A stretch of 39,117 nucleotides of DNA from an uncultured archaeon (GTDB lineage: Archaea; Asgardarchaeota; Thorarchaeia; Thorarchaeales; Thorarchaeaceae), in contig CAZSWP010000034.1 of NCBI GenBank assembly GCA_964610875.1, positions 1 through 39,117 of the forward strand. Reading direction: 5' to 3'. Below, in pieces: positions 1 through 39,117 of this stretch (its first letter is position 1; each line of letters begins with the position of its first letter). Position numbers and translations under genes: made by a program. The notes beneath the pieces are model-generated. The model saw nothing but the letters and a program-made list of their open reading frames with translations, did not search any database and was not told the origin of the DNA.

Positions 1-186
1 CAACAGGATATACTGCTTGCTTGAGACGATGGTCAGGTCGTGTCAACATAGCGATCCAGGTGATGTTGACGTGTCTCAAGGGATAGTCTATTGACCGAGG
101 CATATAAACTCCTAGAGACATGTAGAGGAGAAGTGTGTTGCATCACTGTCATCTGATAGCGTGGTCACAAGGACTGACCGCTAAAT
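1..186 (-). other. Intervening element copy E1 (structured, intron-like; runs off the window edge) inserted in the hydrogenase large-subunit gene
   Basis: Protein similarity stops right after GYNH (CAT 189-187) and no frame continues with the expected RGIE. Minus strand shows CGCTATCAG, the CTCCT..ACATGT..AGGAG hairpin (130-109), TTATAT (107-102), GGTCA (96-92), nested stems CTTGAGAC/GTCTCAAG and GTCAACAT/ATGTTGAC, ACGACCTGACC (41-31) and CAGTA...GTTG, in the same order as in the 10001-10188 insert. Confidence 0.8.
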
Positions 187-339
187 ATGATTGTAGCCTA
201 TATTTACTTCAGCTTCGACAATCTGTTCACCCTCAATAGTGAGTTTGAACATGCCGGGCTCTTTGAGAGCGGGGTGCTGTGGTCCAATGGGAATTGTTAC
301 TCGTGGGGGAGTGATAACTTTCTTGTCTTCAATGGTCAT
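187..339 (-). CDS. Group 4 [NiFe]-hydrogenase large subunit (EchE/MbhL/NuoD-like), 5' part only, interrupted by E1
   Basis: MTIEDKK...IPIGPQHPALKEPGMFKLTIEGEQIVEAEVNIGYNH is the typical N-terminus of this family. It directly follows the NuoC-like gene. Confidence 0.85.
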
Positions 340-9413: not shown

Positions 9414-9501
9414 CTAGATATCCACCAAGATGTTGGTACAATGTTTTATCTATAAGACTATTGAAATGAGGACAAATATCTTTGAACTGAGAGAGAAACA
9501 G

Positions 9502-10000
9502 ATGCCAGCTACTCCATTACATTATCCTCTAGCTTTGGGTATTCACAAGGCAAAGAGGGATCTGAGGTTACCAGCCATTGTTGTTGGTTCAGTGATGCCA
9601 GATATTGAAGTGCCAATTCTGTGGTATTTCTTTTCGGGAGTATTGCCGGATCATTTGTTTCTACATAGTTTCGTGGGAGCCCTCACAGTAGGAGTCCTAC
9701 TCACGGTGCTAGTAACACGTTTCCTATACGCACCAATAATCTCATTCTTTTTCGGTGTTGACAAAGCAAAATTGACCTTTGCATGTACACTTGATAGGAA
9801 CCTCATTCTTTCAAGTGTGATTGGCATTCTCAGTCATTTGCTATTGGATTATCCAATGCATTGGTACAATCCACTTCTCTGGCCTTGGGTGGATCCTTTT
9901 GCACTTGTTGGGCCGATGGTTCTCCTCTTTACTCCCTTTGGTCCCATCAACGGGCTTGCATACTGGCTTGCCAATTGGATCACAAATGGAATTATGATAG
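9502..10000 (+). CDS. DUF4184-like membrane protein, 5' part (exon 1)
   Basis: MPATPLH, GSVMPDIE, HSFVG and SHLLLDYPMH motifs. The last hydrophobic helix breaks into polar SRTDTNNQDKP* at the insert. Boundary ambiguous between 10000 and 10003. Confidence 0.8.
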
Positions 10001-10188
10001 GGTCGCGAACAGATACTAATAATCAGGACAAACCTTGACATTGTTGTGTAGGTGCTTATATAGGACCGGTAAGGATATTTTAGTGAGGGTGTCTTGACAC
10101 ACGATCTTACCCTCGCAAAGCCAGTCCCAGTACCGTTGTCTGGGAGGACAAAGCTTTGGTGTCCAGATTTGTCCAACTTACAATGAAC
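10001..10188 (+). other. Intervening element copy E2 (complete, about 185-188 nt, structured, intron-like)
   Basis: Removing 10001-10188 gives ...NGIMIG-FWIIALVYYRKK...; removing 10004-10188 gives ...IGWFW..., also in frame. Contains the ACCT..ACATTGT..AGGT hairpin, TTATAT, GGTAAG/CTTACC, the TCCCAG/CTGGGA hairpin and GGACAAA/TTTGTCC. Confidence 0.85.
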
Positions 10189-10280
10189 GGTTCTGGATTA
10201 TTGCATTAGTGTATTATAGAAAAAAGAATCTCTGGGAACAGATATGGCTGGGAAACTCTGAGGATTCTGAGGATGTTTAA
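10189..10280 (+). CDS. DUF4184-like membrane protein, 3' part (exon 2; too short for the ORF track)
   Basis: Reads FWIIALVYYRKKNLWEQIWLGNSEDSEDV*. It completes the transmembrane helix with a basic stop-transfer patch and ends 14 nt before the convergent gene. Confidence 0.75.
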
Positions 10281-10294
10281 TCAGAACAGAAAGC

Positions 10295-11089
10295 CTATGA
10301 TTTTGCTCTAACTACCATGTTCTGATGCATGTCTGAATCAAATGCAGATTTGTTGTAATCGGAGAATATCTCTGTCGAAGTGAAACCTGAGCTGTCCAGC
10401 ATGTTAATAATTTCATCATCATGTATATTCAATACAGACTGATATGATGTTGATACGTTCCAACCTTCTTTCTGTTCAATGAATGATGAAAGGACTAGCT
10501 CAAAAGGCTCTGAATCCTCACGAATATTAAAGAACCTTGAGAAGACTACTCTCTCACCAGTGTTGAGGTGTCCTGCTTTTTGTGGTATCAAAAAGATCTT
10601 GTTTTTGGAGATAAAGTTCCCATTTAGAACTTGGAATACGAAATATCTATCGGGTGCAAGAATTCCTTGGACGGATTTAAGCAGTCTTTTTACTGAACTC
10701 ATATCATCCATTAGAGCAAGAGAATTACCAAGACACAGGACAAGATCGAAAGGCGGTTCAACATAAGAGGGAAATTTCACCATATCATCAACAATCCATG
10801 TGATATCTAAGCCAAGACTCGTTGACTTTTCTTTTGCAGATTCAATCATCCTCTCACTAATATCAAGACCTACCGCACTGACCCCTTTCTCTGCAAGTGC
10901 TATCACATGTTTTCCCGTACCACACGCTAGGTCCAAGACACGACCTCTTGCATTGACTAGTGACTGTTGCAGAAAAGGCATCTCTCGCTGTAGACGTTTA
11001 GTCCAGTCTATAGTGTTATTATAGGCCAATGCCAATTCTTCAAAGGGATTCTCACTGTCCAAAGTATCACATCCAAATTGTATTTCCAT
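10295..11089 (-). CDS. Class I SAM-dependent methyltransferase
   Basis: VLDLACGTG, GLDIS and FDLVLCLGNSL motifs. Confidence 0.92.
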   Translation of the reverse strand: MEIQFGCDTLDSENPFEELALAYNNTIDWTKRLQREMPFLQQSLVNARGRVLDLACGTGKHVIALAEKGVSAVGLDISERMIESAKEKSTSLGLDITWIVDDMVKFPSYVEPPFDLVLCLGNSLALMDDMSSVKRLLKSVQGILAPDRYFVFQVLNGNFISKNKIFLIPQKAGHLNTGERVVFSRFFNIREDSEPFELVLSSFIEQKEGWNVSTSYQSVLNIHDDEIINMLDSSGFTSTEIFSDYNKSAFDSDMHQNMVVRAKS

Positions 11090-38644: not shown

Positions 38645-39054
38645 ATGTCAAAAGAGAGCGAGAATATCGTAGATTTTGATAAACGATTGGTACGCAAGGG
38701 CCTACTCCAAAGAGCGCATATTGAACATGTCCAATGCATGACATGCTATCATCGTTGCATACTAGAGAAACGACAATTTGGTAAGTGCGGTACGAGAATG
38801 AATATTGATGGCGTAATCTATACCATTACTTATGGAAATATATCCTCTATAAGTAATAATCCAATTGAGAAAAAACCCTTCTATCACTTTGCTACAGGAA
38901 CATACGCTTACACAGTTGGAAGCTGGGGCTGTAATGCAGATTGTGGTTGGTGACAGAACTACGAGATTTCGAAAACTAGAGCAGCACCTAACATCTCGCG
39001 ATATATGGGACCTACAGAGTTCGTAGATGCAGCTCTGAAAATAAAAAGTGACGG
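38645..39054 (+). CDS. AmmeMemoRadiSam-type radical SAM enzyme, 5' part, with in-frame TGA (38951-38953) and interrupted by E3
   Basis: CMTCYHRC, GKCGTR and NPIEKKPFYHF motifs, then GCNADCGW[TGA]QNYEISK. The frame stays family-like to ...KSDGV, then the expected (S/T)(F/Y)NEP motif is missing. Confidence 0.82.
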
Positions 39055-39117
39055 GGTTGCTAGCAGCTCCAAAAATCCTAGACAATCCTAGACATGTTTC
39101 AGGAGGGGGTTATATAC
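39055..39117 (+). other. Intervening element copy E3 (5' portion; runs off the window edge)
   Basis: GGTTGCTAGCAGCTCCAAAAATCCTAGACAATCCTAGACATGTTTCAGGAG..TTATATA aligns colinearly with the E2 start GGTCGCGAACAGATACTAATAATCAGGACAAACCTTGACATTGT..AGG..TTATATA. Exact 5' boundary uncertain (39055-39058). Confidence 0.75.

What the first reader, a model, noticed from the sequence alone, without database searches (positions are those of the whole stretch)
10001..10188. Family of small structured intervening sequences splitting three unrelated genes: candidate new class of archaeal mRNA intron or guided mobile element
Seen in sequence: this complete insert splits a DUF4184-like gene inside a transmembrane helix, and removing it restores the frame and a sensible C-terminus (...IMIG|FWIIALVYYRKK...*). 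Homologous inserts interrupt the hydrogenase large subunit (1-186, minus strand) and the radical SAM gene (39055-39117). All three share, in order, YGCKANCAG, a CCT..ACAT(T)GT..AGG hairpin and TTATAT. E1 and E2 further share CGGT, a stem with internal loop ACGAYCTKACC and CAGTA..GTTG. All are in the sense orientation of the host gene and have no credible ORF. Established knowledge: group I introns end in G and have P7/J8-7 consensus motifs, group II introns start GUGYG and have domain V, and archaeal EndA introns have a bulge-helix-bulge. I could not find these signatures by eye. Inference: the inserts are removed at RNA level by an unrecognised mechanism, or are non-autonomous mobile elements.
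Basis: partly seen in the sequence, partly recalled or inferred. Interest (0 to 1): 0.95.

Follow-up and report, generated by a model that had tools for sequence, protein, structure and literature searches.

The report
Gene-less IS607 mini-transposon with guide-RNA scaffold
The 188-base insert is not a new kind of intron but one of about fifty copies of a protein-less offshoot of an IS607-type jumping gene in this Thorarchaeota (Asgard) genome; it keeps the transposon's two ends and the structured guide-RNA scaffold of its TnpB nuclease, which is a known kind of element.

Summary
The observation largely holds. Window 10001-10188 is a sharply bounded 188-nt insert. Removing it restores the frame and a C-terminal tail that uninterrupted orthologs share. 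The intron reading fails. The insert belongs to a family of at least 45 full copies (about 186-188 nt; subfamilies of 177 and 217 nt) in this 3.75-Mb genome. Copies lie in both orientations. They are strongly depleted from gene interiors, and one splits an Fpg/Nei gene antisense. Every copy sits at W-G|GG|T with GG at both junctions. I saw no terminal inverted repeats and no target duplication. Two 10-bp-phased GGACA-type motifs lie near each end. The first ~43 nt and last ~65 nt are homologous to the left and right ends of an 8.6-kb element on another contig that encodes an IS607 serine transposase and a 731-aa TnpB. A covariance model of the 3' 109 nt also hits the 3' end of that TnpB clade in 29 of 29 loci from related genomes, where omega RNA is encoded. 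The fold has four covarying helices, including a pseudoknot. Verdict: an IS607-family mini-element carrying an omega-RNA-like scaffold, a new member of a known kind. E3 is a family member; E1 is a different repeat. This scan reached the same reading earlier on other Thorarchaeota DNA.

The parts
10001..10188 (+). Complete 188-nt IS607-type mini-element (E2 subfamily), written GGT...GAAC. The boundary can slide by up to 3 nt because GGT also follows the 3' end.
   Evidence: Seven full copies at 98-100% identity, plus partial copies at contig ends. Ends defined by the alignment of 44 copies.
10000..10002 (+). Left junction: flank G (10000) plus the GG core (10001-10002).
   Evidence: G at flank position -1 in 38 of 39 copies, A/T at -2 in 32 of 39, GG invariant.
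10189..10191 (+). Right junction: second copy of the GG core plus target T. The empty site reads A-G-GG-T.
   Evidence: GGT follows the element in 38 of 39 copies. Excision restores the ORF.
10024..10040 (+). Left-end subterminal repeats CAGGACA (10024-10030) and CTTGACA (10034-10040), 10 bp apart. Presumed TnpA binding sites.
   Evidence: Read from the sequence. The motif is conserved across subfamilies and in the left ends of both tnpA-bearing elements. Function is inferred from IS607/IS1535 work (PMC6188088).
10056..10062 (+). TTATATA box, about 22 nt upstream of the structured 3' domain. Candidate archaeal TATA box inherited from the region just upstream of tnpA.
   Evidence: Nearly invariant in 20 diverged copies. 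It aligns by eye with GGTTATAG upstream of the tnpA ATG in the parent-type left end. Promoter activity is inferred.
10083..10188 (+). Omega-RNA-like scaffold and right end. Helices: H1 10085-10091/10108-10114, H2 10116-10121/10153-10158, H3 10125-10130/10140-10145, pseudoknot H4 10146-10151/10169-10174.
   Evidence: 90% of cells paired against 48% or less in slid controls, with 10 pairs showing compensatory changes. Model R1 built from this part hits the 3' end of the large TnpB gene in 29 of 29 loci, again with covariation.
10160..10176 (+). Right-end subterminal repeats TGTCCAG (10160-10166) and TGTCCAA (10170-10176), 10 bp apart and inverted relative to the left-end motifs.
   Evidence: Read from the sequence; conserved in all subfamilies.
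10189..10210 (+). Flank that would be read out as the guide if transcription runs through the scaffold (length assumed about 16-22 nt).
   Evidence: Inference from the TnpB/omega-RNA architecture (10.1101/2023.11.20.567912; PMC10055086). Not tested.
9430..10000 (+). Host gene, 5' part (YdjM/DUF4184-like membrane protein, 190 codons).
   Evidence: Pfam YdjM 3.3e-9 and DUF4184 1.4e-7. Orthologs found in 16 of 18 other genomes of the same family.
10189..10280 (+). Host gene, 3' part (last 30 codons plus the stop), in frame only after excision.
   Evidence: The tail matches the orthologs.
39055..39117 (+). E3: the first 63 nt of another copy (GGTTGCTAGCAGC subfamily) inserted in a radical SAM gene and cut by the contig end.
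   Evidence: 98% identical to the start of the copy at C4:15371-15434 and 82-88% to other copies. The flank ends in G before GGT.
1..193 (-). E1: part of a different 3-copy repeat interrupting the N-terminus of a hydrogenase/NuoD-like large subunit. Not a member of the E2 family.
   Evidence: BLAST finds only C46:482-674 and the start of C69. R1 gives no match to those two copies. The gene neighbours are NuoB- and NuoC-like.

Best explanation
The insert is a non-autonomous, protein-less deletion derivative of an IS607-family transposon. It keeps about 75 nt of the left end: the GG core, two phased TnpA-binding-type repeats and the TATA-like box that precedes tnpA. This is fused to about 110 nt of the right end: the structured scaffold encoded at the 3' end of tnpB, two inverted phased repeats and the terminal ...ACAATGAAC before the GG core. 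The serine transposase TnpA, encoded on two larger elements on contig C18, would move it in trans. TnpA would recombine the GG core of the excised circle with a GG in a W-G-GG-T target. That leaves GG at both junctions, no target duplication, and a scarless site on excision. Inferred step: the retained TATA box drives a short RNA that starts near 10085, folds into the four-helix pseudoknotted scaffold and runs into the flanking DNA. This would give an omega-type guide RNA that the 731-aa TnpB could load in trans to cut the emptied site and so retain the copy. For the host gene the insertion is simply a disruption: the YdjM/DUF4184-like protein loses its last 30 residues. Shown here: the family, its ends, its target, homology to the TnpA/TnpB element, the position of the scaffold at tnpB 3' ends, and the covariation. 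Inferred: mobilisation by that TnpA, transcription, TnpB loading and guide function.
For: There are at least 45 full copies, with no longer copy sharing both ends, and many contigs break inside copies. The target is W-G|GG|T in 38 of 39 copies, with no TSD. This matches the IS607 rule of a GG at the termini and at the target, a preferred (G)GG or TGGG, and no TIR or TSD (PMC6188088; 10.1101/2023.11.20.567912). Mini positions 1-43 are 77-79% identical to C18:16148-16190. Positions 127-191 are 71-77% identical to C18:24661-24729. Those are the two ends of an 8.58-kb unit holding a 206-aa TnpA, an 1838-aa ORF and a 731-aa TnpB. The TnpA scores 175.5 bits on NCBIfam IS607 transposase (cut-off 110) and has a MerR-type HTH followed by a Resolvase domain. 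A second tnpA on C18 has a matching left end. The TnpB carries the TNB domain and gives sub-threshold TnpB/Cas12f matches. Model R1, built from the mini's 3' 109 nt, hits the 3' end of the TnpB gene on the same strand in all 29 TnpB loci searched, 28 of them from other genomes, at 19-68 bits. Four helices covary. The module is found in 41 of 60 other genomes of the GTDB family, with up to 59 matches per genome. Copies lie in both orientations and are depleted from gene interiors.
Against: No RNA data could be obtained, so transcription, RNA ends and TnpB loading are unproven. The C18 element is only 71-79% identical at its ends, so it is a relative of the E2 subfamily and not its direct parent. 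No closer master copy is in the 95%-complete assembly. Part of the covariation (H4, GGACA/TGTCC) coincides with the presumed TnpA-binding repeats and could reflect DNA-level co-evolution. Some related genomes hold many minis but no intact cognate TnpA or large TnpB in the assembled part: G010 has 35 matches but only a truncated tnpA head next to a tnpB tail. The guide function may therefore be dispensable or lost. The second tnpA left end lacks the TATA-like box.
Confidence: 0.85

Rival explanations
1. A new class of small intron, removed from the host mRNA at the RNA level either by self-splicing or by a host enzyme, so that host genes stay functional.
For: Precise excision restores the frame of intact-looking genes: YdjM-like, and NMO, Na/Pi cotransporter and S9 peptidase. 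The element has a conserved fold. IS607-family IStrons show that such transposons can carry introns (10.1101/2023.11.20.567912). Archaeal omega RNAs can be circularised by an unknown pathway (PMC12558985).
Against: The copies are 98-100% identical, so intact exons only show a recent insertion. One copy lies antisense inside an Fpg/Nei gene, and an ABC ATPase is broken antisense. Orientation follows the target-motif expectation: 8 sense to 5 antisense against 56% expected. Only 13 of 39 copies lie inside genes against 79% of free WGGGT sites, p about 8e-10, so insertions are not silent. The radical SAM host of E3 also has TGA at an essential Cys. No group I or II match appears even at E up to 10. 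BHB occurs at chance level, 3 of 39 against 2.8 expected.
Confidence: 0.04
2. A plain IS607-type MITE with no RNA function. The conserved 'structure' would only reflect DNA sequences that TnpA needs at the right end, plus inherited tnpB 3' sequence.
For: The GGACA/TGTCC repeats overlap helix H4. Some genomes keep many minis without an assembled cognate TnpB. There are no expression data.
Against: H1, H2 and H3 covary at positions outside the repeat motifs. About 110 nt of right end are kept in all subfamilies at constant length although identity falls to about 70%. A TATA-like box is conserved at a fixed distance upstream.
Confidence: 0.1
3. An IS200/IS605-type PATE moved as single-stranded DNA by a Y1 (HUH) TnpA, inserting 3' of a GGGT target.
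For: There are no TIRs and no TSD, the target is a short specific motif, and the element has hairpins and a link to TnpB.
Against: No Y1 transposase was found in the genome. The same GG(T) stands at both junctions, as expected for a serine-recombinase core. Both ends match an element whose transposase is an IS607 serine recombinase.
Confidence: 0.01

Closest known systems
IS607-family insertion sequences (serine-recombinase TnpA plus TnpB with a right-end omega RNA), e.g. H. pylori IS607, IS1535 and C. botulinum IS607/IStron elements (PMC6188088; 10.1101/2023.11.20.567912)
   Same: GG core at both termini and at the target, with an extra upstream G preferred. No terminal inverted repeats and no target duplication. 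Phased subterminal repeats. Ends homologous to an element in the same genome that encodes an IS607 TnpA and a TnpB. A structured RNA module at the tnpB 3' end/right end.
   Different: There is no protein gene at all (188 nt against about 2 kb). The related full element is 8.6 kb and carries an extra 1838-aa ORF and an oversized (731-aa) TnpB. The host is an Asgard archaeon. No group I intron is present, unlike IStrons.
PATEs / protein-less IS200/IS605 derivatives that encode omega RNAs used in trans (Meers et al., PMC10055086)
   Same: A minimal non-autonomous element made of the left and right ends, which often keeps the omega RNA and depends on TnpA and TnpB supplied in trans. It outnumbers the autonomous copies many-fold.
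   Different: Those elements move as single-stranded DNA by a Y1 transposase and have palindromic ends. This one has serine-recombinase-type (IS607) ends and a GG core.
Asgard Cas1-associated TnpB elements (Cas1H-Asgard groups; PMC10691335)
   Same: Large TnpBs in Asgard archaea lie in multi-kb mobile units together with a very large partner gene.
   Different: I did not show that the 1838-aa ORF is a Cas1 homolog (no Pfam or NCBIfam match). Here a serine TnpA is present and explains the ends.

Membership tests
IS607 family (as a non-autonomous derivative) | GG dinucleotide at both transposon termini and at the target, with no target-site duplication | tested here: met
   GG at both junctions in 38 of 39 copies. 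The empty site is W-G-GG-T, and excision restores the ORFs exactly.
IS607 family (as a non-autonomous derivative) | No terminal inverted repeats; multiple subterminal repeats at each end | tested here: met
   I saw no terminal inverted repeat in the aligned ends. Two 10-bp-phased GGACA-type motifs lie at the left end and two inverted ones at the right end. Binding by TnpA was not tested.
IS607 family (as a non-autonomous derivative) | Serine-recombinase TnpA with an N-terminal MerR-like HTH, encoded between the same ends | tested here: met
   The mini has no ORF. The homologous ends on C18 flank a 206-aa TnpA scoring 175.5 bits on NF033518 (cut-off 110), with HTH followed by Resolvase. A second tnpA has a matching left end.
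IS607 family (as a non-autonomous derivative) | Mobilised by that TnpA through a circular double-stranded DNA intermediate | not testable with these tools
   Needs excision and integration assays. Recent activity is implied by the 98-100% identical copies.
TnpB omega RNA | Encoded at the 3' end of tnpB, overlapping the ORF and ending at the right-end boundary | tested here: met
   Model R1, built from the minis, matches the same strand at the 3' end of the large TnpB gene in 29 of 29 loci. It overlaps the last roughly 65-80 nt of the ORF.
TnpB omega RNA | Conserved secondary structure supported by covariation | tested here: met
   Four helices including a pseudoknot. 90% of cells are paired against 48% or less in slid controls, with 10 compensatory pairs. 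In the TnpB-linked set 15 of 17 pairs are compensatory, though that alignment was fitted to the model.
TnpB omega RNA | Transcribed, bound by TnpB, with the 3' flank used as a guide next to a TAM | not testable with these tools
The TAM is presumed to overlap W-G-GG, by analogy with the C. botulinum IStron.
Group I / group II / BHB (EndA) introns | Catalytic core (P3-P9 with a terminal G; domain V) or a bulge-helix-bulge at the junctions | tested here: not met
   No Rfam family matches at the gathering score over the window. At E up to 10 over 9900-10300 there are only two chance snoRNA hits. A relaxed BHB is found in 3 of 39 copies against 2.8 +/- 1.5 with random flanks, and E2 itself fails.
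IS200/IS605 PATE | Y1 (HUH) TnpA in the genome and different cleavage motifs at the left flank and the right end | tested here: not met
   PF01797 is not found in the 95%-complete genome. The same GG(T) stands at both junctions.

The most novel reading that the evidence does not exclude
The minis would be free-standing, self-promoted guide-RNA genes. About fifty dispersed copies would each read out a different flank as a guide for one or two TnpB genes acting in trans. That would make them guide-RNA-only selfish elements, maintained by homing in an Asgard archaeon. Bolder and far less likely: sense-oriented copies could be cut out of host transcripts as circular omega RNA with re-ligation of the flanks.
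Probability: 0.35. Interest if true: 0.5.

Novelty: new member of a known kind. Interest (0 to 1): 0.3.

Why it matters
This result removes a claimed new intron class and replaces it with a well-supported, ordinary mechanism. It still has some value. It documents a high-copy, recently active IS607-derived mini-element family across one Thorarchaeota family (41 of 60 other genomes searched). It gives a defined target motif, exact ends and a covariance model for the scaffold of an oversized Asgard TnpB clade. Those pieces help in annotating Asgard MAGs, because many contig breaks and 'split genes' come from these copies. They also help anyone who wants to reconstitute this TnpB with its guide RNA.

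Tried and rejected
- Rfam found nothing, either at gathering scores over the whole window or at E up to 10 over 9900-10300. The window has no tRNA genes.
- The BHB scan of all copies gave chance-level results.
- I looked for a longer autonomous copy sharing both E2-type ends. None is in the assembly; only the diverged C18 elements are.
- No Y1 transposase was found.
- E1 could not be placed. It is not hit by R1, it has only three copies, and the rest of its host hydrogenase gene is not in the assembly. Its right junction and its family therefore stay open.
- The 1838-aa ORF of the C18 element has no Pfam or NCBIfam match.
- A sequence search of the PDB with the TnpB gave only weak TranC hits.
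- The RNAalifold suggestion that the 5' end GGGUUG pairs with CAGCUU near the 3' end was not pursued. It competes with the covarying pseudoknot helix H4.

Full report
**1. The observation**

The stretch 10001-10188 reads GGTCGCGAACAG...ACAATGAAC. A G precedes it and GGT follows it. It is not unique. A search of the window's own genome (3.75 Mb, 124 contigs, 95% complete; the window is contig C34) finds seven full-length copies at 98-100% identity. It also finds further near-identical pieces cut by contig ends, a 187-nt subfamily at about 80% identity, and many copies that share the last 50-80 nt.

Anchoring on the conserved 3' end gave 56 sites. None has homology to another copy beyond about 220 nt, apart from neighbouring copies whose search windows overlap, so every copy is short. 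The alignment fixes the ends. Every complete copy begins GGTYGNNNACAG and ends ACAATGAAC. Lengths are 185-188 nt, with one subfamily of 217 nt and one of 177 nt.

Deleting 10001-10188 joins ATG ATA G|GG TTC TGG. This gives ...NGIMIG|FWIIALVYYRKKNLWEQIWLGNSEDSEDV*. Orthologs of this YdjM/DUF4184-like gene in other genera of the same family run through the site without a gap and carry the same tail, for example ...IIMLVWWILILIQYRGKNLWNNHWI and ...LWEHIWLG. The exon-2 call is therefore correct.

E3 (39055-39117) is the first 63 nt of a copy from another subfamily, cut by the contig end.

E1 is a different matter. It has two other copies in the genome (C46, and the start of C69) and different termini. 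The covariance model of the family does not detect those two copies. It shares only short motifs with E2.

**2. What the family is**

The junctions are uniform. Across 39 independent copies:
- flank position -1 is G in 38;
- position -2 is A or T in 32;
- the element starts GGT in 38;
- the 3' flank starts GGT in 38.

The empty site is therefore W-G-GG-T. GG stands at both junctions and nothing is duplicated. I saw no terminal inverted repeat in the aligned ends. Instead, the left end has two GGACA-type motifs 10 bp apart (10024-10030 and 10034-10040). The right end has two inverted ones (10160-10166 and 10170-10176).

This is the published signature of IS607-family transposition:
- insertion at a GG dinucleotide, with (G)GG preferred;
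- GG at the termini;
- no TSD and no TIR;
- multiple subterminal repeats bound by dimers of a serine-recombinase TnpA (PMC6188088);
- a strict GG requirement inside a TGGG motif that matches the TnpB TAM, shown for a C. botulinum element (10.1101/2023.11.20.567912).

The genome has eight TnpB-type genes and one fragment and no Y1 transposase. One TnpB, a 731-aa protein at C18:22509-24704, ends in a sequence homologous to the 3' end of the minis, down to ...ACAATCAAC|GGT. Mini positions 1-43 match C18:16148-16190 at 77-79% identity. Positions 127-191 match C18:24661-24729 at 71-77%.

Between these ends lie three ORFs: a 206-aa ORF, an 1838-aa ORF on the other strand, and the TnpB. The 206-aa protein is an IS607 transposase. 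It scores 175.5 bits on NCBIfam NF033518 against a cut-off of 110, and it has a MerR-type HTH followed by a Resolvase domain. Its left end reads caag|GGTTTGATAACAGCTACATGAAACCCAGACAAACCTAGACATTGATTAGGTTATAG...ATG.

A second tnpA (70% identical, C18:60669) has a left end that also matches the minis.

The minis are therefore internal-deletion derivatives. They consist of the left end up to just before tnpA, fused to the last roughly 110 nt of the element.

**3. The 3' domain is the TnpB RNA module**

Twenty diverged copies support four helices in the 3' domain: H1, H2, H3 and a pseudoknot helix H4.
- 90% of cells are paired, against 33-48% when partners are slid.
- Ten pairs show compensatory changes, against 2-5 in the slid controls.
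- No shuffle reached the observed covariation score.

A covariance model of the last 109 nt (R1) finds 53 sites in this genome. It finds matches in 41 of 60 other genomes of the same GTDB family, covering 13 of 16 genera and up to 59 matches per genome.

I then fetched loci of the large-TnpB clade from related genomes and searched them with R1. Every one of the 29 loci, 28 of them from other genomes, has a match on the TnpB strand at the gene's 3' end. The match overlaps the last tens of codons and runs a few tens of nt past the stop. Covariation is strong again, although that alignment was fitted to the model.

This is the place where TnpB omega RNA is encoded. PATE-like protein-less elements that keep an omega RNA for use in trans are already described for IS605 (PMC10055086).

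A nearly invariant TTATAT(A) box (10056-10062) sits about 22 nt upstream of H1. It aligns with the GGTTATAG that precedes tnpA in the parent-type left end. I infer, and have not shown, that it drives an RNA through the scaffold into the flank.

**4. Why it is not an intron**

- *Orientation.* One copy lies antisense inside an Fpg/Nei glycosylase gene, with the N-terminal domain upstream and the H2TH domain downstream. Another breaks an ABC ATPase antisense. Sense copies split NMO, Na/Pi-cotransporter and S9-peptidase genes. By a mechanical ORF criterion, 8 copies are sense and 5 antisense. Unoccupied WGGGT sites predict 56% sense (p = 0.79).
- *Cost.* Only 13 of 39 copies lie at least 20 codons inside an ORF of at least 130 aa, against 79% of free WGGGT sites (p about 8e-10). 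Many copies sit in intergenic DNA or within a few codons of a gene end. Insertions in genes are evidently selected against.
- *Decay.* The radical SAM gene split by E3 also has TGA at the third Cys of CxxxCxxC, where five orthologs have TGT or TGC.
- *Signatures.* There is no Rfam match, even with loose thresholds. BHB motifs occur at chance level.
- *Intact exons are uninformative.* The copies are 98-100% identical, so the insertions are recent.

**5. Limits**

No RNA or read-level data could be obtained. The C18 element is a relative of the E2 subfamily, not its direct parent. Some related genomes hold many minis but only truncated tnpA/tnpB remnants in their assemblies, so guide function may not be needed for persistence. 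H4 overlaps the presumed TnpA sites. E1 remains unplaced.

**6. Comparison and verdict**

By its ends, target and parentage the element is a member of the IS607 family, in a protein-less form analogous to the omega-RNA-bearing PATEs of IS605. It is not an IStron, because it has no group I core. Earlier follow-ups in this scan reached the same reading for look-alike elements in this and other Thorarchaeota genomes. I re-derived it here from this genome's own data.

Novelty: new member of a known kind. Interest: low to moderate.

Noticed in passing
window 38950-38952: The radical SAM gene (AmmeMemoRadiSam-like, GCNADCGW-TGA-QN) has TGA at the third Cys of the CxxxCxxC cluster motif. Five orthologs in related genera have TGT or TGC there. 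This is either a nonsense mutation in a gene already split by E3, or a Cys-to-Sec change.
   Followed up: partly
window 1-193 (minus strand); C46:482-707; C69:1-~205: E1 is a separate 3-copy repeat that interrupts a hydrogenase/NuoD-like large subunit right after the GYNH motif. Its homology with the C46 copy starts 14 nt upstream of a GGTCAG. The C69 copy runs on to a ...GTTACAATCAAC end resembling the C18 right end. Its ends and its family are unresolved.
   Followed up: partly
own genome C18:16819-22353 (L073:773-6286, minus strand): An 1838-aa ORF with no Pfam or NCBIfam match lies between tnpA and the 731-aa tnpB inside the 8.6-kb IS607-like unit. The literature describes Asgard Cas1-like partners of TnpB (PMC10691335), but I did not test that relation.
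   Followed up: no
related genome G010:C81:166331-166758: A tnpA head (residues 1-119) lies directly next to a tnpB tail (TNB domain). This is an intermediate-size deletion derivative in a genome that has 35 mini copies but no intact large TnpB in the assembly.
   Followed up: no
own genome, contig ends (e.g. C10:1-50, C117:1-53, C44:30660-30713, C41:32845-32895, C4:106041-106088, C29:49938-49990): Many contigs of this assembly stop inside copies of the element, so the family is a major cause of assembly breaks and its copy number is underestimated.
   Followed up: partly
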